A stretch of DNA of 64,000 nucleotides from NCBI GenBank assembly GCA_035444805.1, contig DAOMPM010000006.1, positions 1,069 to 65,068 on the forward strand, read 5' to 3'. The DNA comes from Luteimonas sp. Lineage in GTDB: Bacteria > Pseudomonadota > Gammaproteobacteria > Xanthomonadales > Xanthomonadaceae. Positions 7,286 to 44,585 of this stretch are shown piece after piece (positions within the stretch are counted from its first letter, which is position 1; every line of letters starts with the position of its first letter). A model generated the notes under the pieces. The model was not told the DNA's origin and made no database searches. It saw nothing but the letters and a program-made list of their open reading frames with translations. Made by a program: the position numbers and the translations under genes.

Positions 7286-9349
7286 TCAAGGCTGGCGCAT
7301 CTCCAGGCCCAGCGCCTCGGCGATCGCCTTCCACGACACGATCTTGTAGTTCTGGTTCTCGGCGGGGAGCACGTTGCGCCCGTCCTGCGCGACCATCGCG
7401 CCGTACTCCAGCCCGGGCCCGAGGTTCGCGCTGCTGACGTCCAGGCCATCGGTCTCGGAAATGCCGTCGATGCCGCGCGCCGGATCGGCGACCACGGCGA
7501 ACGAACCCAGATACTCCTGCTCCGCCTCGCGCCGGTACACCGCATAGGTGTCGTTGCCCTGGCTGGACACGATGATGTAGCCGCGGCCTTCGCCGAGGTC
7601 GTACAGACCTACGCCTTCGAAGTCGTCCTTCACCGCGGGGTTGTCCGCGATACGCTCGACGACGGTCTTGTCGTCGCCGCCGTCGGGCTCGGCGGACAGT
7701 TTCCACAGCGCGACGTCCTCCTCGCCGACGTAGAGGATGCCGGTCTCGTCGTCGGCCACGCAGCCCTCGGTCTGGGAGTCGAACTCCAGTTCGCGCACCA
7801 GCTCGGTCCGCACCCGCCCGTTGCCGGCGTCGAGTAGCCGCCACTGCCGCTTCACCGTGTCGTCGCCGTTGATGAAAACGTAGAAGTCGCCGTTGCGCTG
7901 GCTGCGGTACATGCACAGGCCGTACGGGTCGTGCATGCCGGTCGGCTGCACGCCGTCGGCGATTTCCACCAGCTCGCCCTTGCCGGTGTCGAGCCGGTAG
8001 ATGGCGATGGACTTGCGCGTGCGGTCGCTCGCGGTGACCAGCACCACCTTCTCGCCGCCAAGGTCGAAGCCGTCGCGCAGGTCGACGTTGTTCATCTTGC
8101 CGTCGGCCACGTAGTGCTTCACCCGCCCCTGCATGTCGTGCACGTACAGCCCGGACTTCTTGTCGGTCGCCACGATCAGGCTCATCCCCGGTTGCATCGG
8201 ATTGGCCCAGATCGCCGGGTCGTCCGCGGCGTCGCCGTAGCTGGCGACGGGAACCGTTTCCGCCACCGCGACCACGCCGGAACCGGGGCCTGGGGCAGTG
8301 GTCCGCGGGTCCCGCGGCGCGCCCGCGGTGAAGCCGAGCGCCTCGGCGATGGTGCCGATCGACAGCAGCTTGACGTCCGGTCCATCCTCGTCGGTCACCA
8401 GTAGCGCGCCGTCCGGCATGTCCGGGCCGAGTCCGGGCCCTGCGGCGAACATCGGCCCCGGTTCGTCGACGGTGGCGTCATCGCCGGCGGCGATGCGGAA
8501 GCTGCCGATATAGGCCGCGTCGTCCGCGAGGTCGTAGACGTTGACGCTGCCGGCCGAGGCGTTGGACGCGAACAGCCAGCGACCGCCCTCGCCCTCGTGG
8601 ACCGCCAGCCCGCCGACTTCCTCTTCGATGTGTCCGCCGCGCGGCAGGTCGATCAGTGCGGCCGCGACGTCAGACTCCGGATCCGCGTTCAAGCGCCAGA
8701 TGCCGACCGTTTCCTCCGACGCGTAGACGTGGCCCGCGGCATGGTCCACCGCGCACTGCTTCAGCGGCGACGGCACCGAGATCCTGCGCACCTGCGTAGC
8801 CGCGAGCGTGCCATCGCCAGCATCATGGATCACGCGCTGCTCGATCTCGCCGCCGTCGCCGACCACGAACGCGTTGAGCACCCCACTGAGCGGATTGCGG
8901 GACAGGCACAGCCCCTCGCCGGCGAAGCCCAGCGGCACCGGCGGCGCGACCTCGACCAACGTGTCCGCGGCGAAGCGGAACAGACGCAGGCTGTGCGGCG
9001 TGGTGGTGTCGATCGCCGCCACCAGGGTGATGCGGTCGTCGCCGAGACCGATGCCGTAGGCGACGTCCACTGCGGCGACCTCGCCGGCGGCGACCGCCGC
9101 GACACGGCGACCATCGACGGTGTGCAGCTCCAGTCCGCCTCGCGCCGTCGCGGAAACGATCCGGTTCCCGTCCGGACCCTCGCCCAGCAGCAGCGCAGCG
9201 CCGAGGACCTCGCCCGACTCGGCCGCCGCGGTACGCGCCGCCGGCGCCAGCGTCGACAGCGGATCGCCGGCGCCCTGCTGGACCTGGGTGCACCCACCTA
9301 GGCACAGCATGACCGTGGCCAGGCCGCAGAGCGTCCGCATCGTTCCCAT
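7286..9349 (-). CDS. Tandem-domain beta-propeller (alkaline, Ca-dependent) phytase, lipoprotein
   Basis: C-terminal domain has ADDPAIW, NNVD, PYGLCMY, EGCVADD, GEED, EGVGLY, SSQGND, ETDG, QDG motifs; N-terminal half is a degenerate second propeller; LGGC lipobox. Confidence 0.9.
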   Translation of the reverse strand: MGTMRTLCGLATVMLCLGGCTQVQQGAGDPLSTLAPAARTAAAESGEVLGAALLLGEGPDGNRIVSATARGGLELHTVDGRRVAAVAAGEVAAVDVAYGIGLGDDRITLVAAIDTTTPHSLRLFRFAADTLVEVAPPVPLGFAGEGLCLSRNPLSGVLNAFVVGDGGEIEQRVIHDAGDGTLAATQVRRISVPSPLKQCAVDHAAGHVYASEETVGIWRLNADPESDVAAALIDLPRGGHIEEEVGGLAVHEGEGGRWLFASNASAGSVNVYDLADDAAYIGSFRIAAGDDATVDEPGPMFAAGPGLGPDMPDGALLVTDEDGPDVKLLSIGTIAEALGFTAGAPRDPRTTAPGPGSGVVAVAETVPVASYGDAADDPAIWANPMQPGMSLIVATDKKSGLYVHDMQGRVKHYVADGKMNNVDLRDGFDLGGEKVVLVTASDRTRKSIAIYRLDTGKGELVEIADGVQPTGMHDPYGLCMYRSQRNGDFYVFINGDDTVKRQWRLLDAGNGRVRTELVRELEFDSQTEGCVADDETGILYVGEEDVALWKLSAEPDGGDDKTVVERIADNPAVKDDFEGVGLYDLGEGRGYIIVSSQGNDTYAVYRREAEQEYLGSFAVVADPARGIDGISETDGLDVSSANLGPGLEYGAMVAQDGRNVLPAENQNYKIVSWKAIAEALGLEMRQP

Positions 9350-9468
9350 CGTTGCAACTCCTCATTATCTGGCGTGGATCGGTCGGTCGCGGCACCCGGC
9401 CTGCGCGCCGACGGGCTGGCGGCGGGAGACGCGGCCAGGTGGCCACGCTAGCCAAGTAGCCCCCCATT

Positions 9469-9514
9469 TGCAAGAAAAATTCTAATTTAGTTGCATTTTG
9501 GAATCTTTGTTCGT
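9469..9514. promoter_or_regulatory. Pair of candidate IolR operators in phytase/TBDR divergent promoter
   Basis: TGCAA-GAAAAA-TTCTA (9469-9484) and TGGAA-TCTTTG-TTCGT (9499-9514); same TGGAA-N6-TTCCA-like palindrome as at the iol promoters. Confidence 0.55.
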
Positions 9515-9588
9515 AATCTCGGTCCTGGCCGGACCGTCCGGCAATCGCCGGTGTGTGCATCGGAACAGTCCTCGGGAGGGACCGGATC

Positions 9589-12162
9589 ATGCGGAGATTG
9601 CGTCGTAACGCGCTTTTCAAGGCATTGGTGCTCTGCCAATGCGTGGCACTGCCTTCCATCGCGCTCGCACAGGACGCGGCACCCCAGTCGCCACCGGCGT
9701 CCGACCCCACCGAGTTCGACACGATCGTCGTCACCGGCCGCCGCGCCGCCGATCGCCTGGCGATCGACGACAAGCGCAACGCCGACAACCAGGTGGATGC
9801 GATCCGCGCCGACGACGTCGGCCACCTGCCCGACCAGAACGTGGCCGAAGCGGTGCGCCGCCTGCCCGGCGTCACCACGATCAACGACCAGGGCGAGGGC
9901 CGCTACCTCACCGTGCGCGGCGTCTCGCCGGACCTGCTCAACGTCACCCTCAACGGGCAGACCGCGGCCGCGCCGGAACCGGACGGCCGACAGGTCAAGC
10001 TCGACGACATCCCCTCGGCGCTGATCGGCGGCGTCACCGTCGCCAAGACGCTGACGCCGGACATGGACGCCAACGCGATCGCCGGCCAGGTCAACATCGA
10101 GACGGTGTCGGCGTTCGACCGCAACCGTACCTTCGGCTCGGTGCGCGCCGCCTACGGCCGCTACGACATCAACGGCGAGAACCCGTACGAGTTCGATGCG
10201 TCGATCGGCGGCGTGTTCGGCGCCAACCGGCAATTCGGCGCGGTGGTCGCAGTGAACCGCTCCGACCGCAAGATCGGCTCGCAGAACATGCAGAACCCCG
10301 GCGACTGGATCGAGGTCGACGGCGAATGGGTGCCCGAAGGCCTGACGGTGCGCCAGTACAACACCCACCGCCAGCGCACCGGCGCGGTCGCCAACTTCGA
10401 CTGGAAGCCGAACGACAATGCCTTGCTGTACCTGCGCTTCCTGTACTCGAAGTACCAGGACCAGGAGACCCGCGACGGGTTCGCGCTGGAGTTCGACGAC
10501 GACAGCATCTTCCCGACGTCGGCAACCGGCGGCACCTTCGAGGACGCCGAGGCGATCCGCGCGATCCGCACGCGCGAGGAGACCACCAGCTCCTTCACCG
10601 TCTCCGCCGGCGGCGAGTTCGACTTCGGCAGAAACAAGCTGACCGCCGAGGCCGCCTATGCCCGCGCCGACAAGCGCGACCCGAACCGCGACGAGTGGGG
10701 CTTCGTCGCGGAGGACATCACCGGCAGCTATGTGATCGGCCCGCGCGGCTACGACATCTCGTTCGACGACGATGCCGCGTTCGACCCGTCCAACTTCGAG
10801 CCGGATTTCTTCGAGCCCGAATCACGCCGCGCGATCGAGGATCTGTACCAGGCGCGGCTGGACTACGTAATCCCGTTCGGCGAGAACGGCTCCGAGTTCC
10901 AGTTTGGCGTCAAGTACATCAAGCGCGACAAGACCAACGACGAGAGCGGTCGCGCCTGGAAGTACGACGACGGCGACCTGATGATGTCGGACGTGACCAA
11001 CCGGTCGATCGCGACGCTGTTCGGCGGCCGCTACCGGCTGGGCCCGCTGGTGAGCGGCCCGCTGTCGGACGCGTACTTCGCCGCCAACCCGGGCGAATTC
11101 GAGGAGGATGAGGAAGGCACGATCAGCGCTTCGCTGGCCGCCGACTACGCGATCACCGAGGAGATCACCGCAGCCTACGCAATGGCGCGGCTGTGGTTCG
11201 GCAACGTGACTGTGATCCCCGGCGTGCGCATGGAACACACCAAGGGCAGCTACGCCGCGCATGGCTTCGACCTGGAGGACGCCAGCCTCGATCAACCGTT
11301 CAACGTGTTCGGATCGCGCAGCTACACCGATTTCTTCCCGGGTATCAACGTCCGCTGGGACGCCGGCGAGCACTTCGTCGTGCGCGGCGCCATCACCCGT
11401 GCCATCGGCCGGCCGGCCTACGAGTCGCTGGCGCCATTCGTGGAGATCGAAGGCGTCAACAGCATCGAGCCCGAGGTCACGATGGGCAACCCGGACCTCG
11501 AGCCGCTGTACTCGACCAACTTCGACTTCTCGGTCGAGTACTACGTCGGCAACCGCGGCCTGCTCTCCGCCGCCGTGTTCTACAAGGACATCAAGAACCC
11601 GATCTACGAAGTCACCCGCACCGACCAGGACGGCGTGTTCGGCGGCATCAGCCTGACCGGTGCCGAGGTCAGCACCTGGACCAACGCCAGCAAGGCAACG
11701 GTGTCCGGCATCGAGCTCAACGCCCAGTACGAACTGAGCTTCCTGCCCTCGCCGTTCGACGGCTTCAGCGTCGGCGCCAACCTGACCTTCGTCGACTCGG
11801 AGGCCGAGGGCCTGCCGGAGCGCACCGACAAGGTGCCGCTGATGAGCCAGTCCGATCGCGTCGCGTCCGCACAGATCGCCTACGAGAAGTACGGGTTCTC
11901 CGCGCGGCTCGCCTACACCTACCGCTCGGCGATGCTCGACGAGGTGCACGAGGACGACCCGGACGGCGACATCTACTGGGATTCGCTGAAGCAGTGGGAC
12001 ATCAAGTTCGGCTACGAGATCAATCCGCGCTGGTCGGTATTCCTGGAGGGCTCCAACCTCAACGACGCGGCGATGCGCGCCTACGTCGGCCGCCGCGAGC
12101 GCACCATGGAGCGGGAGATCTACGGCTGGTCCGCGCGCATGGGGGTCCAGTTCAAGTTCTGA
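9589..12162 (+). CDS. TonB-dependent receptor (phytase-associated type)
   Basis: Signal peptide; TonB box DTIVVTG; plug motif NVAEAVRRLPG/DQGEGRYLTVRG; GNPDLEP; C-terminal VQFKF. Confidence 0.93.
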   Translation: MRRLRRNALFKALVLCQCVALPSIALAQDAAPQSPPASDPTEFDTIVVTGRRAADRLAIDDKRNADNQVDAIRADDVGHLPDQNVAEAVRRLPGVTTINDQGEGRYLTVRGVSPDLLNVTLNGQTAAAPEPDGRQVKLDDIPSALIGGVTVAKTLTPDMDANAIAGQVNIETVSAFDRNRTFGSVRAAYGRYDINGENPYEFDASIGGVFGANRQFGAVVAVNRSDRKIGSQNMQNPGDWIEVDGEWVPEGLTVRQYNTHRQRTGAVANFDWKPNDNALLYLRFLYSKYQDQETRDGFALEFDDDSIFPTSATGGTFEDAEAIRAIRTREETTSSFTVSAGGEFDFGRNKLTAEAAYARADKRDPNRDEWGFVAEDITGSYVIGPRGYDISFDDDAAFDPSNFEPDFFEPESRRAIEDLYQARLDYVIPFGENGSEFQFGVKYIKRDKTNDESGRAWKYDDGDLMMSDVTNRSIATLFGGRYRLGPLVSGPLSDAYFAANPGEFEEDEEGTISASLAADYAITEEITAAYAMARLWFGNVTVIPGVRMEHTKGSYAAHGFDLEDASLDQPFNVFGSRSYTDFFPGINVRWDAGEHFVVRGAITRAIGRPAYESLAPFVEIEGVNSIEPEVTMGNPDLEPLYSTNFDFSVEYYVGNRGLLSAAVFYKDIKNPIYEVTRTDQDGVFGGISLTGAEVSTWTNASKATVSGIELNAQYELSFLPSPFDGFSVGANLTFVDSEAEGLPERTDKVPLMSQSDRVASAQIAYEKYGFSARLAYTYRSAMLDEVHEDDPDGDIYWDSLKQWDIKFGYEINPRWSVFLEGSNLNDAAMRAYVGRRERTMEREIYGWSARMGVQFKF

Positions 12163-12191
12163 CAACAACAACGATGCGTCGCCTGCCTCCG

Positions 12192-12219
12192 ACGGCGGCC
12201 TCTGGCCGCCGTTCTTTTT
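12192..12219 (+). terminator. Rho-independent terminator after TBDR-1
   Basis: ACGGCGGCC-TCT-GGCCGCCGT followed by TCTTTTT. Confidence 0.8.
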
Positions 12220-12225
12220 CGGTCA

Positions 12226-12440
12226 GGGGTCAGAGTGGCTTTTTCCTGGCGACCTTGTTGCAGCCTGTTAGGGCAACGCTGAGAACCGCTGTCATCCCCG
12301 CGGAGGCGGGGACCCAGTGTCTTCAAGTCTTTGAACAACAAAGACGCTGGGTCCCCGCCTCCGCGGGAATGACGAGCAAAAGCGACTTGATCAGCGTTGC
12401 CTTGGTCTTGATCTGGCGAGGAAAAAGCCACTCTGACCCC
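12226..12440. repeat. Nested palindromic composite element
   Basis: Outer perfect 22 bp IR GGGGTCAGAGTGGCTTTTTCCT / AGGAAAAAGCCACTCTGACCCC; middle IR GGCAACGCTGA / TCAGCGTTGCC; inner GTCATCCCCGCGGAGGCGGGGACCCAG doublet at 12291-12373. Confidence 0.9.
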
Positions 12441-12521
12441 AGCTTTCCTTCCACTTTCCGGTCCGGTCGCAGCCGTATGTGGAGTGCCCCGTCTGGGGAG
12501 AGTCCCCGCAGGAGAAACCAC

Positions 12522-13826
12522 ATGCACCCAAGCCTCCGCATCCGCCCTCTCCTCCGCACCATCGCGACCGTCGCGCTCGCCGCCCTCGCCGCGTCCTGCG
12601 CGCACGCGCCCTCGCCGGACGCGGCCAGCGCGCCGGCCGGCGGCGATTCGCTGCAGCTGGATCGCGTGGTCCTGCTGATGCGCCACGGCGTGCGCCCGCC
12701 GACGCGGATGCCGCCGATCGCCGAGGGGCTGTCGCGCCAACCCTGGGCGGGATGGGACGCCGAGCCCGGGCACTTGACCGCGCACGGCTACGCCGGAACC
12801 GTGCTGGTCGGACGCTGGAGCCGCGGCGCGCTCGCCCATCGCGGACTGTTCGCCGCGGACGGCTGCCCGCCGCCGGGCAGCGTCGCGGTGCGCGCCAACA
12901 CCGACCAGCGCACGCGCGAAAGCGCGCGCGGGTTCCTGGAAGGGTTCGCGCCGGGCTGCGGCATCGCGGTCGCGCACAGCGACGGCCACCGCGACGACCC
13001 GATCTTCCAGTCGATCGACCTCGGGCTGGTGGAGTTCGACCGCGACCTCGCGCGCGCAGCGGTGATGGCGCGCGTCGACGGCGATCTCGGCAACGCCGTG
13101 CGCCCGCTGGCCGACGCATTCGCCCGGCTCGATGCCATCCTCGGATGCTGCGCCCCGCCTGCCTGCGCACAGGCCGGGTTGCCGCCGGACTGCACGCTGT
13201 CCACCTGGCCGACCGGCTGGGCGGACACCGCGCCCGGAAGGCGGGTGAAGTTCGGCGGCGCGCTGGACGCCGGCGGCATCGCCGCGCACACGCTGCTGCT
13301 GGAGTACGTGGAAGGCAAGCCGAGGGACCGGGTCGGCTGGGGTCGCGCCACGGAAGCGGACATCGCGCTGCTGTCGCGGATCCACGCGGTCGAGTTCGAC
13401 CTGCTCTACCGCACGCCCTACATCGCCCACCGCGGCGCCACGCCGATCCTGGAGCGGGTGCTGGCGACGTTCGGCGACGACGCAGCGCCGCGGCTGGACG
13501 TGCTGGTCGGCCATGACACCAACGCCTCCAACGTCGGCGGCGCGCTGGAGCTGCACTGGCACGTGCCCGGCTATGCGCCCGACGATGCCGCGGTCGGCGG
13601 CGCGATCGGTTTCGAGCTGCTGCGCGACGCCGCCGGCGACCGCTTCGTACGCGTGTCTTACCAGGCGCAGGGCGCGCGGCAACTGCGCGAACGGCAGCCG
13701 CTCGATGCCGCCAGCCCGCCCTATTTCGTACATATGGCGCAGCCGCTGTGCGCGCTGCCGTCCGACCCGACGCTGTGCCGCTACGAGGATTTTGCCGACG
13801 CGCTGCGGGCGCGGCTCGTGCGCTGA
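12522..13826 (+). CDS. Histidine acid phosphatase / acid phytase (AppA/Agp-like), probable lipoprotein
   Basis: RHGVRPP and GHDTN catalytic motifs, RT..SA motif, several Cys; LAASC lipobox-like signal; SD AGGAG. Confidence 0.9.
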   Translation: MHPSLRIRPLLRTIATVALAALAASCAHAPSPDAASAPAGGDSLQLDRVVLLMRHGVRPPTRMPPIAEGLSRQPWAGWDAEPGHLTAHGYAGTVLVGRWSRGALAHRGLFAADGCPPPGSVAVRANTDQRTRESARGFLEGFAPGCGIAVAHSDGHRDDPIFQSIDLGLVEFDRDLARAAVMARVDGDLGNAVRPLADAFARLDAILGCCAPPACAQAGLPPDCTLSTWPTGWADTAPGRRVKFGGALDAGGIAAHTLLLEYVEGKPRDRVGWGRATEADIALLSRIHAVEFDLLYRTPYIAHRGATPILERVLATFGDDAAPRLDVLVGHDTNASNVGGALELHWHVPGYAPDDAAVGGAIGFELLRDAAGDRFVRVSYQAQGARQLRERQPLDAASPPYFVHMAQPLCALPSDPTLCRYEDFADALRARLVR

Positions 13827-13842
13827 CGCCAGCCGCGCGCGT

Positions 13843-14820
13843 TCACAGGACCACCACCTCGCCGGTCTTCGCCGACCGCGTTGCCGCCTCGGCCAGCGCC
13901 AGCGCGGCAACGCCGTCGGCGTAGCCCACCAGCGGCGGCGCCCCGCCGAGCATCGCGGCGAAGTGTTCCATCTCGCGTCGGTAGGCCTCGGCGTAGCGGT
14001 CCAGGAAGAAGTTCTGCAGGCGGTCGCTGCCCGCCCCGTCCTCGCCGAACACCTGCACGGTGCTTTCGAGCACGTTGTCCGCGCGCACCATGCCCGCCGA
14101 CGCATAGGCCTCGATGCGCTGGTCGTAGCCGTAGCCGCTGCGCCGTGTGTTGGCGATCACGCACAGCTTGCCGGAGGCGGTCTTCAGCACCGTGCGCGCG
14201 GTGTCGACATCGCCCAGCCGGCCGATCTCCGGATCGACCAGGCAGCTGCCCACGGCCCAGACTTCGGCAATCTCCTCTCCAAGCAGCCAGCGCGCCATGT
14301 CGAAGTCGTGGATCGCCATGTCCTTGAACAGGCCACCCGAGACCGCGACATAGGACGGCGGTGGCGGCGCCGGATCGTTGGAGGTGATCTGCAGGCTCTC
14401 GATGGTGCCGATGGCGCCGCCGTCAAGCCGCGCCTTGAGCGCCTGGAAGTTCGGGTCGAAGCGGCGGTTGAAGGCCAGCAACAGGCGCGCGTCGCGCAGC
14501 GCGCCTGCGGCCGCGCGCGCACGCTGCAGGTCCTGGTCGATGGGCTTCTCGCAGAACACCGCCTTGCCTGCCTGCACCGAGCGGACGCTGTACTCCAGGT
14601 GCGTGTCGGTGGAGCTGGCAATGACCACGCCATCGATCGACGCGTCCGCCATCACCTCGTCCAGCGCCGCCACGCGCGCGCCCCACTCGCCGGCCAGTGC
14701 CTGCGCAGACGCCGCCACCGGGTCCACCACCGCTGCCAGCTCCAGTCCTGGATGCAGCGCGGCGTTGCGGGCGTGGATGCGGCCGATGCGGCCCGCCCCG
14801 ATCAATGCGACCTTGTGCAT
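13843..14820 (-). CDS. iolG: myo-inositol 2-dehydrogenase (Gfo/Idh/MocA)
   Basis: GAGRIG Rossmann motif, FCEKPI, FNRRFDP, SGGLFKDMAIHDFD, YGYDQRIE. Confidence 0.9.
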   Translation of the reverse strand: MHKVALIGAGRIGRIHARNAALHPGLELAAVVDPVAASAQALAGEWGARVAALDEVMADASIDGVVIASSTDTHLEYSVRSVQAGKAVFCEKPIDQDLQRARAAAGALRDARLLLAFNRRFDPNFQALKARLDGGAIGTIESLQITSNDPAPPPPSYVAVSGGLFKDMAIHDFDMARWLLGEEIAEVWAVGSCLVDPEIGRLGDVDTARTVLKTASGKLCVIANTRRSGYGYDQRIEAYASAGMVRADNVLESTVQVFGEDGAGSDRLQNFFLDRYAEAYRREMEHFAAMLGGAPPLVGYADGVAALALAEAATRSAKTGEVVVL

Positions 14821-15818
14821 CAGATTTTCTCCTGCAGGCGGACCGGGCGGCGCTCGCGCACCGACCGCTGGCAGGCCTCGGCCAGCGCCAGCGCGGCAAT
14901 GCCGTCGGCATAGTGGGTGCGCGGCTGCGCGTTGCCGTGCACGACCTCCGCGAAGTGCGCGATCTGCGCGCGATAGGATTCGGCGTAGCGCTCCGGGAAC
15001 GCGTACGCGATTGGCGCCGAGGTCACGCCACGCTCGTCCAGCGACTGCACGGTGTCGCGCGACACGTTGCCGGCGCGCGCCATGCCCTTGGCACCGAAGG
15101 CCTCGATGCGCTGGTCGTAGCCGTAGCCGCTGCGCCGGGTGTTGGAAATCACGCACAGCTTGCCGGAGGCGGTCTTCAGCACCGTGCGCGCGGTATCGAC
15201 ATCGCCCAGCTGGCCGATCTCCGGATCGACCAGGCAGCTGGCGGTCGCGAACACCTCGACCGGCTCCTCGCCCAGCATCCAGCGCGCCATGTCCAGATCG
15301 TGGATGGTGAAGTCCTTGAACAGGCCGCCGCTGGTCGGGATGAAGTGCGGCGGTGGCGCCTCCGGGTCGTGGTTGACGATGTGCAGGCTCTCCAGCGCAC
15401 CGATGACACCTGCGTCCAGCCGCCGCTTCAGGGCGAGGAAATGCGGGTCGTAGCGGCGGTTGAAGCCGAGCACGAAGCGGGCGCCCTCGAACTGCGACCG
15501 GGCGGCGAGCGCCTTGTCCAGGTCCAGGTCGATCGGCTTCTCGCAGAAGACGGCCTTACCGGCCGCGACCGCCTCCAGTGCGTGGGCCAGGTGCTGGTCG
15601 GTGGAGCTGCACACCAGCACGCCGCCAAGGTCGGGGTCGGCCAGCGCCTGCGCCAGGGACGACACCGCTGCACCGGTGGCCGCCGCCGTCGCCGCGGCGG
15701 CCTCGGGACGCGGGTCGACCACGTACTTGAGCCGCAGCCCGGGCATGCCCGCCGCGTTGGGGCCGTGTACCTGGCCCATGCGCCCGGCCCCGATCAGGGC
15801 CACCTCGATCCGTTCCAT
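14820..15818 (-). CDS. iolG: Second inositol dehydrogenase paralog (Gfo/Idh/MocA)
   Basis: GAGRMG, FCEKPI, FNRRYDP, SGGLFKDFTIHDLD; stereoisomer specificity uncertain. Confidence 0.8.
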   Translation of the reverse strand: MERIEVALIGAGRMGQVHGPNAAGMPGLRLKYVVDPRPEAAAATAAATGAAVSSLAQALADPDLGGVLVCSSTDQHLAHALEAVAAGKAVFCEKPIDLDLDKALAARSQFEGARFVLGFNRRYDPHFLALKRRLDAGVIGALESLHIVNHDPEAPPPHFIPTSGGLFKDFTIHDLDMARWMLGEEPVEVFATASCLVDPEIGQLGDVDTARTVLKTASGKLCVISNTRRSGYGYDQRIEAFGAKGMARAGNVSRDTVQSLDERGVTSAPIAYAFPERYAESYRAQIAHFAEVVHGNAQPRTHYADGIAALALAEACQRSVRERRPVRLQEKI

Positions 15819-15844
15819 GCGACCCTCCTGCCGCCGACTACAGA

Positions 15845-15884
15845 TAGAATATGATTTCCAAATTCAAATGCAATAGAATTTCCA
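15845..15884. promoter_or_regulatory. Pair of candidate IolR operators in iolG/iolR divergent promoter
   Basis: TAGAA-TATGAT-TTCCA (15845-15860) and TGCAA-TAGAAT-TTCCA (15869-15884) in an AT-rich patch. Confidence 0.65.
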
Positions 15885-15960
15885 GAAATCTGGCCGCGTT
15901 CCATTTTTTCCCGGACACTGCCACACCACGCAGGACCCAAGGACGACGGAGCGCCGCCGC

Positions 15961-16857
15961 ATGCCCGAGACCAGCAGCACCCCCCCCGCCAGCGCCGAAG
16001 AACTGCGCGCGGCCATCCTCGCCCGCTACGACGGGCTGAGCAAACGGCTCAAGCAGATCGCGCGCTACGTTCTCGACGAGCCCAACGCGGTCGCGCTGGA
16101 GACCCTTGCCGTGCTGTCCGAGCGCTGCGGCGTGCAGCCGTCGGCGATCGTGCGCTTCGCCAAGTCGTTCGGCTTCGATGGCGCCACCCAGATGCAGCGG
16201 CTGTTCCGCGACGGACTGCTGTCGGCCAACACTTCGCTGGGCTACGGCGAGCGCATCCGCGAGTTCAGCAAGGCGGTCGACGGCAAGCGCGTCAGCGACC
16301 CGGCGCAGGTGCTGGCGGAGTTCATCGAGGGCAACCTGCTGGCACTGCGGCACCTGGGCGATGCGATCGACAAGCGGGAGTTGACCGAGGCGGTGAAGCT
16401 GATCAAGCAGGCCGACACCGTGTTCGTGGCCGGGTTCCGGCGCTCGTTCCCGGTCGCCGCCTACCTGGCCTACTCATTGCACCAGGTCGACAAGAAGACG
16501 GTGTTCATCGACAGCCTCGGCGGCATGACCCGGCAGCAGATCCACGGCATCACCCGCAACGACCTGCTGCTGGTGGTGAGCTACCAGCCCTACGCCGAGG
16601 AGGCGGTGCACCTGATCGACGTCGCGGTGGACAACCAGTGCAAGGTGCTGTCGATCAGCGACAGCCCGGTCAGCCCGGTCGCCAAGCCGGCCACGCTGGT
16701 ATTGCAGGTCAAGGAGGCGGAGATCCGCAAGTTCCGCTCGCTGTCGACCTCCATGTGCCTGGCGCAGGCGCTGGTGATCTCCTACGCGTTCTCCACGGCC
16801 ACCGCCACGCGCAACGCCTCGGCCCTTGAGACGCGTCGCGGGCCTGGCGAAAAATGA
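15961..16857 (+). CDS. iolR: RpiR/MurR family regulator IolR
   Basis: HTH (LSKRLKQIARY...VQPSAIVRFAKSFGF) plus SIS domain (GFRRSFPVA, SISDSPVSP); flanked by iol genes. Confidence 0.88.
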   Translation: MPETSSTPPASAEELRAAILARYDGLSKRLKQIARYVLDEPNAVALETLAVLSERCGVQPSAIVRFAKSFGFDGATQMQRLFRDGLLSANTSLGYGERIREFSKAVDGKRVSDPAQVLAEFIEGNLLALRHLGDAIDKRELTEAVKLIKQADTVFVAGFRRSFPVAAYLAYSLHQVDKKTVFIDSLGGMTRQQIHGITRNDLLLVVSYQPYAEEAVHLIDVAVDNQCKVLSISDSPVSPVAKPATLVLQVKEAEIRKFRSLSTSMCLAQALVISYAFSTATATRNASALETRRGPGEK

Positions 16858-16899
16858 AACAAATCTTGCTATTCTCAATAAAATAGAATAGATTTTACA
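16855..16899. promoter_or_regulatory. Pair of candidate IolR operators upstream of iolC
   Basis: TGAAA-CAAATC-TTGCT (16855-16870) and TAGAA-TAGATT-TTACA (16884-16899). Confidence 0.55.
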
Positions 16900-18880: not shown

Positions 18881-18881
18881 C

Positions 18882-23942: not shown

Positions 23943-24017
23943 CGGCATCGCCGGCGCGGCGCCGGGTTCGATCCATACCAGGGCAGGCGCCGTGAGCCGG
24001 TCCGGACACCAGGGGAA

Positions 24018-25373
24018 ATGCATTCCATGGCTTCCAGGCTGCTGAAATTCTTCGCAACCGGCGAGGACAAGCCGTTGATCGCCGACCAGGCGACCGTCGA
24101 CGCCATGTTCCGCAAGCACCGCTTCCGGGTGATGCTGGCGATCACCCTCGGCTACGGCGTGATCTACACCTGCCGCCTGGCGCTGGGGGTGGTGAAGAAG
24201 CCGTTGATCGACGAAGGCATCTTCAGCCCGGTGGAACTGGGCATGATCGGTTCGGCGCTCTACTACGCCTACGCGATCGGCAAGCTGACCAACGGCTTCC
24301 TCGCCGACCACGCCAACATGAAGCGGTTCCTCGCGGTGTCGTTCGTGCTCACGGCACTGTGCAACTTCGCGATGGGCCTGACCACGACCGTGTGGCTGGC
24401 GGTGATGATCTGGGGCCTGAACGGCTGGTTCCAGAGCTTCGGCGCACCGGGCGGCGTGGTCGCGATGACGGCGTGGTTCTCCAACCACGAGCGCGGTCGT
24501 GCCTACGGCATCTGGAGCACCGCGCATTCGATCGGCGAGGGGCTGACCTTCGTCGGCGTGGGCAGCGTGGTGGCTTGGCTGGGATGGCGCTGGGGCTACT
24601 TCGTGCCGGCGATGTTCGGCCTCGCCGCGGCCGCGATGATGTACTGGCTGGTGCAGGACCGGCCGCGCACGATGGGGCTGCCCAACGTCAACGACTGGAA
24701 GAACGACCACTTCCAGGCGAAGCCGAAGGCGGACATCAAGTCGGTCCTCGCCCTGCAGCTCTCGATCCTCAGGATCCCGGCGATCTGGGTGCTGTGCCTG
24801 TCTGCGGCAACGATCTACGTGACCCGCTACGCGATCAACTCGTGGGGCATCCTCTACCTGCAGGAGGAGCACGGCCTGTCGCTGCCGATGGCGGGTACGG
24901 TGCTGATGACCAGCACCCTGGCCGGCATCGCCGGCGCGGTCGCCTACGGGTTCACTTCCGACCTGGTGTTCAAGGCGCGCCGTCCGCCGACCAACCTGCT
25001 GTTCGCGATGCTCGAGATCGCCGGTCTGCTGCTGTTCTTCTACGGCCCCGGCACGATGCCGGCGCTGATCACCGGGATGGTGCTGTTCGGCGTCGGCCTG
25101 ACCGGCCTGGTCACCTCGCTCGGCGGGCTGTTCGCGGTCGACATCGCGCCCAAGCGCGTGGCCGGGGCGGCGATGGGCGTGATCGGCATCTTCGCCTACA
25201 TCGGCGCGGGCGTGCAGGAGTACGTCTCCGGCAAGCTGATCGAGGAAGGCATGACCATGGTCGACGGCGTGCGGGTGTACGACTTCGATCCGGTCATCGT
25301 GTTCTGGGTCGGCGCGTCGGTGGTGTCGATGCTGCTCGCGGCCAGCCTCTGGCGCACCGCACTGAGGGATTGA
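24018..25373 (+). CDS. MFS organophosphate:Pi antiporter (OPA family, GlpT/UhpT/PgtP-like)
   Basis: About 12 TM; YTCR, IGKLTNGFLAD, NGWFQ, ERG..GIWSTAHSIG, YVTRYAINSW align by eye with GlpT motifs. Confidence 0.85.
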   Translation: MHSMASRLLKFFATGEDKPLIADQATVDAMFRKHRFRVMLAITLGYGVIYTCRLALGVVKKPLIDEGIFSPVELGMIGSALYYAYAIGKLTNGFLADHANMKRFLAVSFVLTALCNFAMGLTTTVWLAVMIWGLNGWFQSFGAPGGVVAMTAWFSNHERGRAYGIWSTAHSIGEGLTFVGVGSVVAWLGWRWGYFVPAMFGLAAAAMMYWLVQDRPRTMGLPNVNDWKNDHFQAKPKADIKSVLALQLSILRIPAIWVLCLSAATIYVTRYAINSWGILYLQEEHGLSLPMAGTVLMTSTLAGIAGAVAYGFTSDLVFKARRPPTNLLFAMLEIAGLLLFFYGPGTMPALITGMVLFGVGLTGLVTSLGGLFAVDIAPKRVAGAAMGVIGIFAYIGAGVQEYVSGKLIEEGMTMVDGVRVYDFDPVIVFWVGASVVSMLLAASLWRTALRD

Positions 25374-25380
25374 TCCGGAG

Positions 25381-26202
25381 ATGGCGATCGATGCATCCAG
25401 CGAATTGAAGGCCATGGTCGACGCCGCCCGCGCGGCTGGCGAGGGACTGCTGCGGCATTTTTCGCAGCTCGCCGACCTGGAGGTACAGACTAAGGCCGGC
25501 CCGACCGACCTGGTGTCGATTGCCGATGAAGAGGCCGAACGCACCGTGCGTTCGCTGCTGGCGGCGGCGCGTCCCGCGTACGCGTTCCTCGGCGAGGAGA
25601 GCGGCATCGGCGGCGGCGGTGACCTTTCGCAGTGCTGGATCGTCGACCCGCTCGACGGCACCACCAACTTCCTGTTCGGTGGTCCACTGTGGGGCGTGAA
25701 CGTCGCGCTGGCGCGCGACGGCGAGGTCGTCGCCGGCGTGACCTACCTGCCGGTGCACGATGAACTGTTCGTCGCCGAGCGCGGCAAGGGCGCGTGGCTG
25801 GGCAACCGCCGCATCCGGGTATCGACCCGCCGCACGCTGATCCAGAGCGTGCTCGCCTGCGGCATCCCCTACGCCGACAAGCCCGACCACCCGGTCTTCG
25901 CCAGGGAGATGGCGCTGCTCAGCGCCAAGGTCGCCGGCATCCGGCGCACCGGCGCCTGCTCCATCGACATGGCGTACGTCGCGGCCGGGCGCTGGGACGC
26001 GTACTGGGAACGTGCGCTCAACGCCTGGGACATGGCGCCGGGCGTGATCCTGGTCGAGGAGGCGGGCGGCATCGCGACCTCGGTCACCGGCGCCGCGCTT
26101 GACCTGGACGCAGGCAACGTCTGCGTCAGCAACGGAGCGATCCACACCGCTCTGCTCGACCGGCTCAACGAAGCGCTCCACCCGGGGGAGAACACAACAT
26201 GA
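25381..26202 (+). CDS. Inositol monophosphatase family protein
   Basis: GEESG, WIVDPLDGTTNF, WDMAPG motifs. Confidence 0.93.
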   Translation: MAIDASSELKAMVDAARAAGEGLLRHFSQLADLEVQTKAGPTDLVSIADEEAERTVRSLLAAARPAYAFLGEESGIGGGGDLSQCWIVDPLDGTTNFLFGGPLWGVNVALARDGEVVAGVTYLPVHDELFVAERGKGAWLGNRRIRVSTRRTLIQSVLACGIPYADKPDHPVFAREMALLSAKVAGIRRTGACSIDMAYVAAGRWDAYWERALNAWDMAPGVILVEEAGGIATSVTGAALDLDAGNVCVSNGAIHTALLDRLNEALHPGENTT

Positions 26203-27641
26203 AGCTGCAGCGCCGTACCTTCCTCGCCGCGACCGGACTGGCCGGCATGTTCGGGGCCATGCCCAGGGTGCTGGCCAGGGCGCTCGGCTATCCGCGGGCA
26301 CTTCAGGGCCCGATGCTCGGCGCACCGGGCCCGCACCAGCTGTCGGTCTGGGTGCGCGCCAGCGGCGCCTTCGAAGTCCTGCTGGAAGTCGCGGCCGACC
26401 GCGAGTTCCGGCGCGTGGTGCAGACCGCGAGCGCGGTGGCGTCGCCGGAGGACGACTGCTGCCTGGTGCTGCGCGCCGAAGGCCTGCAGCCCGACACCGA
26501 CTACTGGTACCGCCTGAAGTACGACGGCGTCGGCGACCGCTACCAGTTCCTGCCGCACCGCGCCAGGACCGCGCCGGCGGGCGCGGCTGCGTTCCGGGTC
26601 GCATTCGGCTCCTGCTGCCGCATCCAGTACGACCCGCAGCAGCGCATCTGGAACACCGTCCGCGCGCTCGAACCGGACATGTTCCTGTGGCTCGGCGACA
26701 ACATCTACGCCGACAGCGACCAGCCCGCGGCGATCACCGATCTCTACGCCCGAGGCCGCGTGGTGCCGAACCTGGAGCCGCTGCTGCGCTCGGTGCCACA
26801 GCTGGCCACCTGGGATGACCACGATTTCGGCTACAACGATTCCGACGGCCTCAATCCGGTCAAACGCGAGTCGCTGCGCATCTTCAAACGCTTCTGGGCG
26901 AACCCGTCCTACGGCGAGCGGGACAATCCAGGCATCTACTTCAAGCAGCACTATGGCGGCGTCGATTTCTTCGTGCTCGACGGGCGCTACCATCGCGATC
27001 CGACCGACAGGCCCGACAACGCGGGCAAGACCATGCTCGGCGCCAGGCAGAAGGCCTGGCTCAAGCGCGAGCTCAAGGCCAGCACCGCGCCGTTCAAGGT
27101 GCTCGCGATCGGCGGCGGCTGGTCGTCGGCCGAAAACGAGAAGGGCGGCGATTCGTGGGCGGTCTACATGACCGAGCGCAACGAAATCTTCGACTTCATC
27201 CGCGACCAGGACATCGGCGGCGTAGTCTGCATCTCCGGCGATTCGCACATGGGCGAGCTCAACTGCGTTCCGTGGTCGGAGCGCGGCGGCTACGACATCT
27301 ACGACCTGTGCTCGTCGCCGCTGGCGCAGATGCCCGCGTCCAAGCACACCCGCCAGGCCCCGGAAGTACGCGTGCGCGATGTATGGACGCGGTCGGTGAA
27401 CGTCGGCCTGCTGCACTTCGACCTGACCGGGGCCACGCCAACACTCACCTGCACCCTGCACGACGATCTGAGCGAGGCGGTGTGGGAGCCGCTGGTGCTC
27501 ACCCCCGACGACCTGAAGAACGGCGCCCGCACCTGGGACAGCAAGTCAGACCCAGTGGAACTGCAGCGGCTGGAGCGGTTCAGGCGCGGCGGCGGCTACT
27601 ACGGCTTCGATCCGCCGGAGGGCTGGCCCGGGGCCCGTTAA
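26199..27641 (+). CDS. phoD: PhoD-family alkaline phosphatase with Tat signal
   Basis: RRTFLA twin-arginine signal; FGSC, WLGDNIYAD, TWDDHD, LDGRY, ISGDSH motifs; ATGA overlap with IMPase. Confidence 0.85.
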   Translation: MKLQRRTFLAATGLAGMFGAMPRVLARALGYPRALQGPMLGAPGPHQLSVWVRASGAFEVLLEVAADREFRRVVQTASAVASPEDDCCLVLRAEGLQPDTDYWYRLKYDGVGDRYQFLPHRARTAPAGAAAFRVAFGSCCRIQYDPQQRIWNTVRALEPDMFLWLGDNIYADSDQPAAITDLYARGRVVPNLEPLLRSVPQLATWDDHDFGYNDSDGLNPVKRESLRIFKRFWANPSYGERDNPGIYFKQHYGGVDFFVLDGRYHRDPTDRPDNAGKTMLGARQKAWLKRELKASTAPFKVLAIGGGWSSAENEKGGDSWAVYMTERNEIFDFIRDQDIGGVVCISGDSHMGELNCVPWSERGGYDIYDLCSSPLAQMPASKHTRQAPEVRVRDVWTRSVNVGLLHFDLTGATPTLTCTLHDDLSEAVWEPLVLTPDDLKNGARTWDSKSDPVELQRLERFRRGGGYYGFDPPEGWPGAR

Positions 27642-29854: not shown

Positions 29855-29921
29855 GGTGGTATACAGGGATCAGGATCCGGTCATCCTGGACCGGCGCTGC
29901 TGACAACTGGCGCCTGCGCCG

Positions 29922-29938: not shown

Positions 29939-29962
29939 GCCCGCCGCCCCATCATCGCCGCC

Positions 29963-42029: not shown

Positions 42030-44585
<2,556 letters not shown>

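What the first reader, a model, noticed from the sequence alone, without database searches (positions are those of the whole stretch)
9469..16899. One 16-bp palindrome occurs in pairs at three promoters, placing phytase-1/TBDR-1 under the inositol repressor
Seen: six instances of a degenerate TGGAA-N6-TTCCA, two per promoter. They are TGCAA/TTCTA 9469, TGGAA/TTCGT 9499, TAGAA/TTCCA 15845, TGCAA/TTCCA 15869, TGAAA/TTGCT 16855 and TAGAA/TTACA 16884, with pair spacings of 30, 24 and 29 bp, in AT-rich islands of a GC-rich genome. Established (from memory): alphaproteobacterial RpiR-type IolR binds a GGAA-N6-TTCC-like operator. Inference: this phytase and receptor respond to an inositol (carbon) signal rather than to phosphate starvation, which is unusual for phytases.
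Basis: partly seen in the sequence, partly recalled or inferred. Interest (0 to 1): 0.68.

Follow-up and report, generated by a model that had tools for sequence, protein, structure and literature searches.

The report
IolR operators control phytase and receptor
A Luteimonas-like soil bacterium carries the known inositol-repressor (IolR) binding palindrome, in pairs, in front of its inositol-catabolic genes and also between a phytase gene and an outer-membrane receptor gene, so phytate breakdown is probably switched on as carbon (inositol) acquisition; the link is conserved in many relatives and I found no paper describing it.

Summary
All six 16-mers lie at the stated coordinates, spaced 30, 24 and 29 bp, in AT-rich islands of a 69.5% GC genome.

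They are not chance. I trained a weight matrix (TGnAA-N6-TTnCA) only on iolG/iolR/iolC promoters of distant relatives. In the 3.3-Mb genome it finds paired sites at seven places: the three named promoters, their three counterparts on a second cluster copy (contig C40), and one other.

The phytase/receptor pair sits in a 46-bp block that is conserved while its flanks are not. It occurs in 44 syntenic loci of Lysobacterales and Caulobacterales, nearly always with exactly 30-bp spacing. Box B fills the spacer of a conserved -35/-10 promoter for the receptor.

Across sampled genomes with a beta-propeller phytase, 9 of 10 that encode RpiR-type IolR have paired boxes upstream of the phytase. None of 28 without IolR do.

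The motif matches the tested Caulobacter IolR operator. No Pho box is present.

Verdict: a well-supported, untested extension of the known IolR regulon to a phytate-scavenging module. The organism is a gammaproteobacterium, not an alphaproteobacterium. This is a new member of a known kind, of moderate interest.

The parts
7286..9349 (-). Two-domain beta-propeller phytase (687 aa) with a lipoprotein signal (MGTMRTLCGLATVMLCLGGC)
   Evidence: Pfam PF02333, 420 bits. N-terminus read.
9469..9484 (.). Box A, TGCAAGAAAAATTCTA, 11.1 bits. Its left half overlaps a TTGCAA hexamer that may be the -35 of the phytase promoter (weak inference).
   Evidence: Consensus TGCAAGagAaATTCcA in 41 distinct orthologous blocks. 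Phytase promoter guess tested: only 18/44 loci have TAnnnT at the right spacing.
9491..9519 (+). Predicted TBDR promoter: -35 TTGCAT (9491-9496), 17-bp spacer, -10 TAATCT (9514-9519)
   Evidence: -35 TTGnnn in 43/44 and -10 TAnnnT in 41/44 orthologous loci at fixed spacing. Not flagged by the stricter consensus scan.
9499..9514 (.). Box B, TGGAATCTTTGTTCGT, 6.0 bits. It lies inside the -35/-10 spacer of the TBDR promoter, and its last T is the first base of the -10.
   Evidence: Consensus TGGAAtnTTtGTTCGT. Exactly 30 bp from box A in 38 of 44 loci, 29 bp in one more.
9589..12162 (+). TonB-dependent receptor of the Xanthomonas/Caulobacter subfamily, with a signal peptide
   Evidence: TIGR01782, 615 bits against cut-off 310. 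Pfam Plug + barrel. Start codon established.
12191..12223 (+). Intrinsic-terminator-like hairpin after the TBDR gene (10-bp stem, 8 GC pairs, T tract)
   Evidence: sequence.
12522..13826 (+). AppA-like histidine acid phosphatase/phytase lipoprotein. No IolR box upstream. Part of the locus but not evidently of the regulon.
   Evidence: Pfam His_Phos_2. NCBIfam AppA family, 242 bits, below cut-off. Start and signal. No matrix hit of 4 bits or more in 12163-12521.
13843..14820 (-). Second inositol 2-dehydrogenase paralog (iolG2). Its start overlaps the iolG stop.
   Evidence: TIGR04380, 409 bits against cut-off 355. Start codon.
14820..15818 (-). iolG/idhA, inositol 2-dehydrogenase
   Evidence: TIGR04380, 382 bits against cut-off 355.
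15845..15860 (.). Box C, TAGAATATGATTTCCA, 14.3 bits, in the divergent iolG/iolR intergenic region
   Evidence: Conserved as aTgGAA-N6-TTC.
15869..15884 (.). Box D, TGCAATAGAATTTCCA, 16.3 bits (genome rank 2)
   Evidence: Conserved as tg.AATaGAATTtcca.
15961..16857 (+). iolR, an RpiR-family regulator (HTH_6 + SIS domains)
   Evidence: Pfam PF01418 + PF01380. 72-79% identical to syntenic Brevundimonas/Phenylobacterium proteins.
16855..16870 (.). Box E, TGAAACAAATCTTGCT, 9.7 bits. Its first three bases are the iolR stop codon.
   Evidence: Conserved as TGAAAc..atgTTGC.
16884..16899 (.). Box F, TAGAATAGATTTTACA, 16.3 bits, 44-59 nt upstream of the iolC ATG
   Evidence: Same position and same TTACA right arm as Caulobacter iolC motif 2 (TGGAATATGCGTTACA, 45-60 nt upstream; PMC2597717).
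16943..23942 (+). iolC (bifunctional kinase/aldolase)-iolD-iolE-iolB-iolA catabolic operon
   Evidence: NF047869, 758 bits against cut-off 600, for iolC.
24018..27641 (+). UhpC/GlpT-type organophosphate:Pi antiporter-like MFS, inositol monophosphatase and PhoD-like phosphatase. Same strand as the iol operon, short gaps, no box of their own.
   Evidence: The 23943-24017 intergenic region is GC-rich and its best site scores 0.1 bits.

Best explanation
The six 16-mers are operators of the locally encoded RpiR-type repressor IolR (15961-16857). This is the same regulator/operator system that was defined experimentally in Caulobacter crescentus and Sinorhizobium meliloti.

Proposed mechanism (inferred throughout): IolR, probably as a dimer of dimers, binds pairs of TGnAA-N6-TTnCA palindromes spaced 24-30 bp. 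It thereby represses up to five transcription units:
- the phytase;
- the TonB-dependent receptor;
- iolG-iolG2;
- iolR itself;
- iolCDEBA, probably read through into the MFS/IMPase/PhoD genes.

At the receptor promoter, box B occupies the spacer between a conserved -35 (TTGCAT) and -10 (TAATCT). Bound IolR should therefore exclude RNA polymerase. Box A, 30 bp away, overlaps a TTGCAA hexamer that may serve the divergent phytase promoter.

By analogy with S. meliloti, a phosphorylated catabolic intermediate made by IolC (2-deoxy-5-keto-gluconate-6-phosphate) binds the SIS domain and releases IolR. Inositol freed from phytate would then feed back positively on phytate uptake and hydrolysis.

The locus therefore behaves as a product-induced phytate/inositol-phosphate utilisation locus, driven by carbon catabolism rather than by the Pho regulon.

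Shown here: the sites, their genome-wide specificity, their conservation, their position relative to conserved promoter hexamers, and their co-occurrence with iolR.
Inferred: binding, repression, the identity of the inducer, and the absence of phosphate control.
For: - Sites verified.
- A matrix trained without any phytase/TBDR sequence ranks the sites 2, 4, 8, 26, 44 and 140 genome-wide. Paired hits occur at only 7 genomic places, 6 of them the three promoters in the two cluster copies.
- Synteny phytase-(TBDR)-iolG2-iolG-iolR-iolCD holds in 44 of 80 IolR-anchored loci from Luteimonas, Pseudoxanthomonas, Arenimonas, Rhodanobacter, Brevundimonas, Phenylobacterium, Terricaulis and other Hyphomonadaceae.
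- The 46-bp block TGCAAGa.AaaTTCcA-N14-TgGAAt.TTtGTTCGT is conserved amid unconserved flanks. The two best matrix hits are exactly 30 bp apart in 38/44 loci.
- Box A and box B profiles correlate with the iol-promoter profile at r = 0.65 and 0.62. The column-permuted null is 0.06 +/- 0.15, and 0 of 5000 permutations reach the observed value.
- Box B lies in the spacer of a promoter whose -35 and -10 are conserved in 43/44 and 41/44 loci.
- Co-occurrence: 9/10 IolR-positive genomes have paired boxes upstream of the phytase, against 0/28 IolR-negative genomes. G048 (no IolR, no boxes) belongs to the same genus as G029 and G091 (IolR, boxes). G029/G091 carry a different box pair 25-60 nt before the phytase ATG, which is an independent architecture. 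Fisher p is about 1e-8, uncorrected for phylogeny.
- Experimental precedent: deleting Caulobacter iolR derepresses idhA, iolC and ibpA, and mutating motif 1 derepresses iolC (PMC2597717). For S. meliloti, IolR is described as binding promoters and being released by DKGP (as summarised in PMC8877191).
- Box F matches Caulobacter motif 2 in position and in its right arm.
- IolR is the only regulator gene seen in the part of the cluster that is shared across the syntenic loci.
Against: - No binding or expression data exist for this organism.
- Box B departs from the palindrome at positions 15-16 (GT instead of CA), scores only 6 bits, and ranks 140 genome-wide.
- The promoter hexamers are weak matches. 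The consensus scanner found no sigma-70 promoter in 9300-9650.
- The phytase-side promoter is not established: a -10 of form TAnnnT is found in only 18/44 loci.
- In Caulobacter crescentus the phytase next to idhA is reported to be controlled by the UrpRS two-component system (PMC8963506). It is not among the genes induced at least 2-fold on myo-inositol (supplement of PMC2597717).
- One IolR-positive genome with that gene order (G329) lacks the boxes. IolR control of phytase is therefore not universal.
- The co-occurrence counts are not phylogenetically independent.
Confidence: 0.78

Rival explanations
1. IolR does bind boxes A and B but is only a modulator. The phytase and receptor are mainly controlled by another signal: phosphate starvation through PhoB, or the PepSY-associated two-component system encoded at about 29.9-32.3 kb, which may correspond to Caulobacter UrpRS. 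Alternatively, IolR acts positively at the phytase promoter.
For: The Caulobacter phytase adjacent to idhA is reported as UrpRS-regulated (PMC8963506). The window encodes PepSY, a response regulator and a histidine kinase downstream of the island. Boxes A and B are weaker (11.1 and 6.0 bits) than the iol boxes (14-16 bits). The phytase-side promoter is undefined.
Against: No Pho-box-like direct repeat lies in 9350-9590 (best is 5 of 14 mismatches), whereas good ones lie at 35742 and 32350 in front of other genes of the island. Outside the 46-bp block nothing in the intergenic region is conserved. Box B sits in the promoter spacer, a typical repressor position.
Confidence: 0.13
2. The conserved 46-bp block between phytase and TBDR is recognised by a different transcription factor with a similar half-site, or is only a conserved divergent promoter. 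Its resemblance to the IolR operator would then be coincidental.
For: Box B has an invariant non-palindromic right arm (TTCGT). Box A has an invariant TGCAAG left arm that differs from the commonest TGGAA. The TTGCA hexamers could be -35 elements.
Against: Both box profiles match the iol-promoter profile far better than permuted columns. The block is present only in genomes that encode IolR. It is absent upstream of equally similar (48-57% identical) two-domain phytases in nine IolR-negative Caulobacterales genomes and in G048. A second, sequence-different box pair precedes the phytase in G029 and G091, which have a 46-47% identical IolR. No other regulator gene was seen in the shared part of the cluster.
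Confidence: 0.07
3. The six sites are chance matches of a degenerate pattern in AT-rich intergenic DNA.
For: With 3 mismatches allowed, TGGAA-N6-TTCCA matches about 170 positions in the window. AT-rich islands carry matrix hits of 6 bits or more at 0.7 per kb.
Against: Paired hits occur at only 7 places in 3.3 Mb, against about 0.15 expected. All six boxes are conserved in orthologous loci of two classes. Spacing is fixed at 30 bp.
Confidence: 0.01

Closest known systems
Caulobacter crescentus IolR (CC1297, RpiR family) and its GGAA-N6-TTCC operator (Boutte et al. 2008, PMC2597717)
   Same: Same regulator architecture (HTH_6 + SIS). Same gene order: idhA/iolG divergent from iolR, followed by iolC-D-E-B-A. 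Same 16-bp palindrome, with two copies in the iolC promoter. Box F sits at the same distance from the iolC start as Caulobacter motif 2 and shares its TTACA arm. Syntenic Caulobacteraceae IolRs are 72-79% identical.
   Different: The described Caulobacter regulon comprises idhA, iolC, iolA and the ibpA-iatA-iatP ABC transporter. Here there is no such ABC transporter in the cluster. The operator pair is instead found in front of a beta-propeller phytase and a TonB-dependent receptor. The host is a gammaproteobacterium.
Sinorhizobium meliloti IolR (Kohler, Choong and Rossbach 2011, J Bacteriol 193:5155; seen only through the summary in PMC8877191)
   Same: [quoted passage not shown] It autoregulates and is proposed to be released by 2-deoxy-5-keto-gluconate-6-phosphate.
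   Different: No phytase or outer-membrane receptor is reported in its regulon. The paper itself was not available, so the binding details rest on the secondary source and on my memory.
CUT loci (carbohydrate utilisation loci containing TonB-dependent transporters) of Xanthomonas and Caulobacter (Blanvillain et al. 2007, PMC1790865)
   Same: A TonB-dependent receptor of the Xanthomonas/Caulobacter subfamily (TIGR01782) is clustered with degradative enzymes, an inner-membrane transporter and a substrate-responsive repressor.
   Different: The presumed substrate is phytate or lower inositol phosphates, not a plant carbohydrate. That paper does not mention phytase, phytate or inositol.
Caulobacter phytase CCNA_01353 under the UrpRS two-component system (reviewed in PMC8963506)
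   Same: A phytase gene stands next to the iol cluster, and a two-component system is encoded just beyond the cluster.
   Different: Regulation there is reported as UrpRS-dependent and uranium-responsive. A Caulobacter-like arrangement (G329) lacks IolR boxes upstream of the phytase and has no divergent receptor gene.
Pho-regulon phytases (for example Bacillus phyC and E. coli appA; from my own knowledge)
   Same: The enzyme classes are the same: beta-propeller phytase and AppA-like acid phosphatase.
   Different: No Pho box lies in the phytase/TBDR intergenic region. The only conserved element there is the IolR-type box pair.

Membership tests
RpiR-type IolR regulon/operator (Caulobacter/Sinorhizobium type) | Regulator with an N-terminal RpiR HTH and a C-terminal SIS domain, encoded beside iol catabolic genes | tested here: met
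   PF01418 + PF01380. It lies between iolG and iolC. NCBIfam gives only generic MurR/RpiR matches below cut-off.
RpiR-type IolR regulon/operator (Caulobacter/Sinorhizobium type) | 16-bp palindrome (T)GGAA-N6-TTCC(A) upstream of iolC and idhA/iolG | tested here: met
   Boxes C, D and F score 14-16 bits and box E 9.7 bits, against a matrix built from relatives. All are conserved.
RpiR-type IolR regulon/operator (Caulobacter/Sinorhizobium type) | The same palindrome at the candidate new targets (phytase/TBDR) | tested here: met
   Box A scores 11.1 bits. Box B scores 6.0 bits, with an intact GAA-N6-TTC core but GT instead of CA at positions 15-16. The profiles correlate with the iol matrix, and the boxes are conserved in 44 loci.
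RpiR-type IolR regulon/operator (Caulobacter/Sinorhizobium type) | Sites occur only where the regulator is present (phyletic co-occurrence) | tested here: met
   9/10 IolR-positive against 0/28 IolR-negative genomes. Not corrected for phylogeny.
RpiR-type IolR regulon/operator (Caulobacter/Sinorhizobium type) | Direct binding by IolR and derepression in an iolR mutant | not testable with these tools
   Needs EMSA/footprinting and reporter or RNA assays.
RpiR-type IolR regulon/operator (Caulobacter/Sinorhizobium type) | Release by a phosphorylated inositol catabolite (DKGP) | not testable with these tools
   Only the SIS domain and the S. meliloti model quoted in PMC8877191 point this way.
CUT locus (TonB-dependent-transporter utilisation locus) | TBDT + degradative enzymes + inner-membrane transporter + regulator in one cluster | tested here: met
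   TBDR TIGR01782. Phytase, AppA-like phosphatase, IMPase and PhoD. UhpC/GlpT-like MFS. IolR.
Pho regulon | Pho box (two CTGTCAT repeats, 11-bp phase) in the promoter | tested here: not met
   The best match in 9350-9590 has 5 of 14 mismatches. Matches with 1 and 3 mismatches exist elsewhere in the window, at 35742 and 32350.
UrpRS-type control of phytase (Caulobacter) | Response-regulator direct repeats upstream of the phytase | tested here: inconclusive
   No CTGACA/CTGTCA-type direct repeat lies in 9350-9590. The UrpR site itself was not available to me. G329 shows a TTTGGGCCACACCCTC tandem repeat upstream of its phytase instead of IolR boxes.

The most novel reading that the evidence does not exclude
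The island is a horizontally mobile 'phytate as carbon source' module shared by Lysobacterales and Caulobacterales. The outer-membrane receptor and the lipoprotein phytase are induced by a cytoplasmic catabolite of their own end product, through IolR, giving a positive feedback loop. A second phytase-like/receptor pair in the same island carries Pho-box-like repeats. One organism would thus run two parallel phytate-scavenging modules, one keyed to carbon demand and one to phosphorus (or metal) stress. Leaky, weaker operators at the uptake genes would provide the basal sensing capacity.
Probability: 0.4. Interest if true: 0.65.

Novelty: new member of a known kind. Interest (0 to 1): 0.5.

Why it matters
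Phytate is the main organic phosphorus pool in soils and manures. Bacterial phytases are usually treated as phosphate-starvation enzymes. A conserved IolR operator pair in front of a phytase and its TonB-dependent receptor says something different for many soil and freshwater Lysobacterales and Caulobacterales. In these bacteria phytate hydrolysis would be wired to inositol catabolism, so it could proceed when phosphate is plentiful and would be induced by its own product.

This affects how phytase gene counts in metagenomes are read as indicators of P limitation. It gives a concrete promoter/repressor pair for inositol- or phytate-inducible expression. It also assigns a candidate substrate class to one member of the large Xanthomonas/Caulobacter TBDR subfamily.

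It remains a regulon extension of a known repressor, not a new mechanism.

Tried and rejected
- Plain mismatch counting against TGGAA-N6-TTCCA was useless at 3 mismatches, so I replaced it with a weight matrix.
- The consensus sigma-70 scan found no promoter in 9300-9650, and only an unconvincing one inside the end of iolR. The TBDR promoter therefore rests on conservation of weak hexamers. My guess for the phytase promoter (-35 TTGCAA, -10 TAGCGT) is supported in only 18/44 loci and is left as speculation.
- I looked for an IolR box before the acid phosphatase (12163-12521) and before the MFS gene (23943-24017). There is none, although many relatives have a strong box just after iolA.
- Other single high-scoring sites in the genome (C21 3087 and 4524, C36 29592, C3 66495, C46 pair) showed no obvious inositol-related context and were not pursued.
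- An alignment of the iolC leader to test a hairpin seen by eye gave no consensus structure. My coordinates were rough.
- My first TBDR query was translated one base out of frame (9590 instead of 9589). It still located the orthologous DNA, but the identity figures for 'TBDR' are off-frame values and should not be quoted.
- The Kohler 2011 paper is not held.
- Literature searches for IolR + phytase, phytase + TonB-dependent + inositol, and phytate + TonB-dependent + inositol catabolism found no report of this link. RegPrecise could not be consulted.

Full report
**1. What is there**

The window is contig C6:1069-65068 of a 3.3-Mb, 155-contig assembly with 69.5% GC. The nearest IolR-bearing loci are Luteimonas marina and L. 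saliphila, at 91-92% IolR identity. The organism is therefore a Luteimonas-like member of the Lysobacterales (Gammaproteobacteria), not an alphaproteobacterium.

Gene content of the region:

| Coordinates | Strand | Gene |
|---|---|---|
| 7286-9349 | - | two-domain beta-propeller phytase with a lipoprotein signal |
| 9589-12162 | + | TonB-dependent receptor, Xanthomonas/Caulobacter subfamily (TIGR01782, 615 bits) |
| 12191-12213 | + | terminator-like hairpin, followed by a repetitive palindromic element |
| 12522-13826 | + | AppA-like histidine acid phosphatase lipoprotein |
| 13843-14820 and 14820-15818 | - | two inositol 2-dehydrogenase paralogs, translationally overlapping |
| 15961-16857 | + | RpiR-type regulator (HTH_6 + SIS), iolR |
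| 16943-23942 | + | iolC (bifunctional kinase/aldolase), iolD, iolE, iolB, iolA |
| 24018-27641 | + | UhpC/GlpT-like MFS carrier, inositol monophosphatase, PhoD-like phosphatase |

**2. The observation**

All six 16-mers are at the stated coordinates, with spacings of 30, 24 and 29 bp. They sit in islands of 47-53% GC. Box E begins with the iolR stop codon.

**3. Is it more than chance?**

Mismatch counting does not discriminate. I therefore built a 16-column symmetric weight matrix from the iolG-iolR and iolR-iolC intergenic regions of 115 distinct sequences. These came from loci whose IolR is at most 80% identical to the window's, and the matrix used no phytase/TBDR sequence. Its consensus is TGnAAyatatrTTnCA, with nearly all the information in T1 G2 A4 A5 / T12 T13 C15 A16. 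The seed was the literature consensus, so the matrix is not a de novo discovery.

- Scanned over the whole genome, the six sites rank 2, 4, 8, 26, 44 and 140 of 3.3 million positions.
- Pairs of hits of at least 6 bits, 16-40 bp apart, exist at only seven places. About 0.15 would be expected from the hit density.

**4. Conservation**

Eighty IolR-anchored loci were fetched.

- In 44 of them a phytase homolog lies upstream of iolG2-iolG-iolR-iolCD, mostly with a divergent receptor gene. The taxa are Luteimonas, Pseudoxanthomonas, Arenimonas, Rhodanobacter (Gammaproteobacteria) and Brevundimonas, Phenylobacterium, Terricaulis, Vitreimonas and other Hyphomonadaceae (Alphaproteobacteria).
- In all 44, the phytase-proximal intergenic region contains one conserved block amid unalignable flanks: TGCAAGa.AaaTTCcA - 14 nt containing gTTGca - TgGAAt.TTtGTTCGTA..cT.
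- The two best matrix hits are exactly 30 bp apart in 38 loci and 29 bp apart in one more.
- Profiles built from box A and box B alone correlate with the iol-promoter matrix at r = 0.65 and 0.62 per column. The column-permuted null is 0.06 +/- 0.15, and none of 5000 permutations reaches the observed value.
- Boxes C-F are likewise conserved.

**5. Position relative to promoters**

On the receptor side, a -35 TTGnnn and a -10 TAnnnT with a fixed 17-bp spacer are present in 43 and 41 of the 44 loci. In the window these are TTGCAT at 9491-9496 and TAATCT at 9514-9519.

Box B fills that spacer, and its last T is the first base of the -10. This plausibly explains why its right arm is invariantly TTCGT rather than TTCCA. 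It is a classical repressor position.

The hexamers are weak, and the generic scanner did not call a promoter. The assignment therefore rests on conservation.

The phytase-side promoter is not established. Box A overlaps a TTGCAA that could be its -35, but a suitable -10 is found in only 18 of 44 loci.

**6. Is IolR the cognate factor?**

(a) *Experimental precedent.* The motif is the one defined in Caulobacter. Deleting iolR (CC1297) derepresses idhA, iolC and ibpA. The iolC promoter has two copies, TGGACCATATGTTCCA and TGGAATATGCGTTACA, and mutating the first derepresses the promoter (PMC2597717). Box F (TAGAATAGATTTTACA, 44-59 nt before the iolC ATG) matches Caulobacter motif 2 (45-60 nt) in both position and right arm.

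(b) *Local regulators.* IolR is the only regulator gene seen in the part of the cluster shared across the syntenic loci.

(c) *Co-occurrence.* I sampled 151 genomes of the window's order and 201 of the order of Brevundimonas lenta. I located phytase homologs, then asked which genomes encode the IolR type (E <= 1e-30) and which have paired boxes within about 350 bp upstream of the phytase.

| Group | Genomes | Paired boxes |
|---|---|---|
| IolR-positive | G000 (both copies), G001, G029, G091, G151, G260, G330, G254, G297 | yes |
| IolR-positive | G329 | no |
| IolR-negative | G048, G116, G020, G136; nine Caulobacterales genomes with 48-57% identical two-domain phytases; fifteen with single-domain phytases | none |

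- The totals are 9/10 against 0/28. Fisher p is about 1e-8, not corrected for shared ancestry.
- G048 belongs to the same genus as G029 and G091, which makes it a natural control.
- G029 and G091 have a 46-47% identical IolR. They carry a different box pair (TGAAAATTTCATTCGA-13-TGAAATTATTATTCCA) 25-60 nt before the phytase start, which is a second, independent architecture.

**7. The exception fits the literature**

G329 has the order phytase-(about 1.6 kb)-iolR, as in C. crescentus (CC1295-idhA-iolR). It has no divergent receptor and no IolR boxes. Instead it has a tandem TTTGGGCCACACCCTC repeat before the phytase.

In C. crescentus the phytase CCNA_01353 is reported to be controlled by the UrpRS two-component system (PMC8963506). 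It is not among the genes induced at least 2-fold on myo-inositol (supplement of PMC2597717). IolR control of phytase is therefore lineage-specific, and other inputs are possible.

**8. Phosphate control**

No Pho-box-like repeat occurs in 9350-9590 (best is 5 of 14 mismatches). CTGACATTTCGCTGTCAT (1 mismatch) lies at 35742, in front of the second receptor of the island, and a 3-mismatch site lies at 32350. This agrees with earlier notes of this scan on the right arm of the island.

**9. Most likely mechanism (inferred)**

- IolR binds pairs of operators. RpiR regulators commonly form tetramers through their SIS domains; a dimer-tetramer equilibrium is reported for SpNanR (bioRxiv 10.64898/2025.12.10.693482, abstract).
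- It represses the receptor, the phytase, iolG-iolG2, iolR and iolCDEBA(-MFS-IMPase-PhoD).
- Basal receptor and phytase activity releases inositol or inositol phosphates from phytate. The cell takes these up and catabolises them.
- The IolC product, 2-deoxy-5-keto-gluconate-6-phosphate, releases IolR. This follows the S. meliloti model as quoted in PMC8877191.
- The result is positive feedback on phytate acquisition.
- The operators at the uptake genes are weaker (11.1 and 6.0 bits) than those at the catabolic promoters (14-16 bits). This would allow the necessary basal expression. That last point is speculation.

**10. Comparison and novelty**

The regulator, the operator and the paired arrangement are known. 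The overall locus layout matches the CUT-locus concept (PMC1790865), which does not mention phytate.

What I could not find in the searchable literature is any statement that a phytase or a TonB-dependent receptor belongs to an IolR regulon. Curated regulon databases could not be checked. I therefore rate this as a new member of a known kind. It is well supported computationally and untested experimentally.

Noticed in passing
genome contig C40 (27.5 kb), not in the window: A second complete copy of the cluster (phytase-TBDR-HAP-iolG2-iolG-iolR-iolC-iolD) at 62-90% amino-acid identity, with the same three box pairs. C40 has GC 0.645 against 0.695 for the genome. It is 94.7% identical in DNA to a different Luteimonas MAG (L005), whereas the window's best is 84%. 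It is probably a contig from another Luteimonas in the same sample (binning contaminant) or a recent acquisition.
   Followed up: partly
window 12293-12370 (also about 44317-44479): An approximately 85-bp near-perfect palindromic element (CATCCCCGCGGAGGCGGGGACCCAG ... CTGGGTCCCCGCCTCCGCGGGAATG) lies between the TBDR terminator and the acid phosphatase gene. It is a dispersed REP/MITE-like repeat with a dozen or more copies across the genome.
   Followed up: partly
window 23943-24017; loci L012, L013, L028, L038, L042, L053 at about +8 kb from iolR: Many relatives have a strong IolR box (for example TGGAATAATTCTTCCA, followed by aTGAAATAg) immediately after the iolA stop codon, in front of the next gene. 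The window has a GC-rich 75-bp gap without a box there. Its GlpT-like MFS/IMPase/PhoD genes are therefore probably read through from the iolC promoter.
   Followed up: partly
loci L001-L080: IolR identities interleave between classes: Rhodanobacter 78-80%, Brevundimonas 77-79%, Phenylobacterium 77%, Arenimonas 76-77%. The whole phytase-iol island is syntenic in Gamma- and Alphaproteobacteria. This points to inter-class horizontal transfer of the island. No tree was built.
   Followed up: no
locus L105 (genome G329), upstream of the phytase: This IolR-positive genome has the Caulobacter-like order phytase-idhA-iolR but lacks IolR boxes before the phytase. It has a tandem direct repeat TTTGGGCCACACCCTC x2 and a bidirectional terminator instead. 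The repeat may be the site of a UrpR-like response regulator.
   Followed up: no
window 15899-15904: A third conserved element, TTCCAT (a half-site or promoter hexamer), lies about 15 nt downstream of box D in the iolG-iolR intergenic region. It is conserved as 'tcCa' in most of 62 orthologous sequences.
   Followed up: no
window 9568-9582: GTCCTCGGGAGGGAC, just before the TBDR start codon, is conserved in the Lysobacterales loci. It can form a short hairpin that includes the Shine-Dalgarno GGGAGG. This may be only a conserved ribosome-binding site.
   Followed up: no
window 16193 (inside iolR) and the equivalent position about +215 in many loci: A recurrent matrix hit (TGCAACGGCTGTTCCG in relatives, up to 15.7 bits) lies inside the iolR coding sequence (residues MQRLFR). 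It is most likely a by-product of protein conservation. It is a caution for regulon scans.
   Followed up: no
window 49956 and 45314: Two isolated matrix hits: TACAATAGGCGTTCCG (10.5 bits, 26 nt upstream of ORF 49982-50272) and TGGAATTCGTATTCGA (8.2 bits). Both are unpaired and of unknown relevance.
   Followed up: no
window 29921-32303: PepSY protein, OmpR/PhoB-family response regulator and histidine kinase stand downstream of the island. In Caulobacter the phytase regulator UrpRS is encoded just beyond the iol cluster (PMC8963506), so these may be its counterparts.
   Followed up: no
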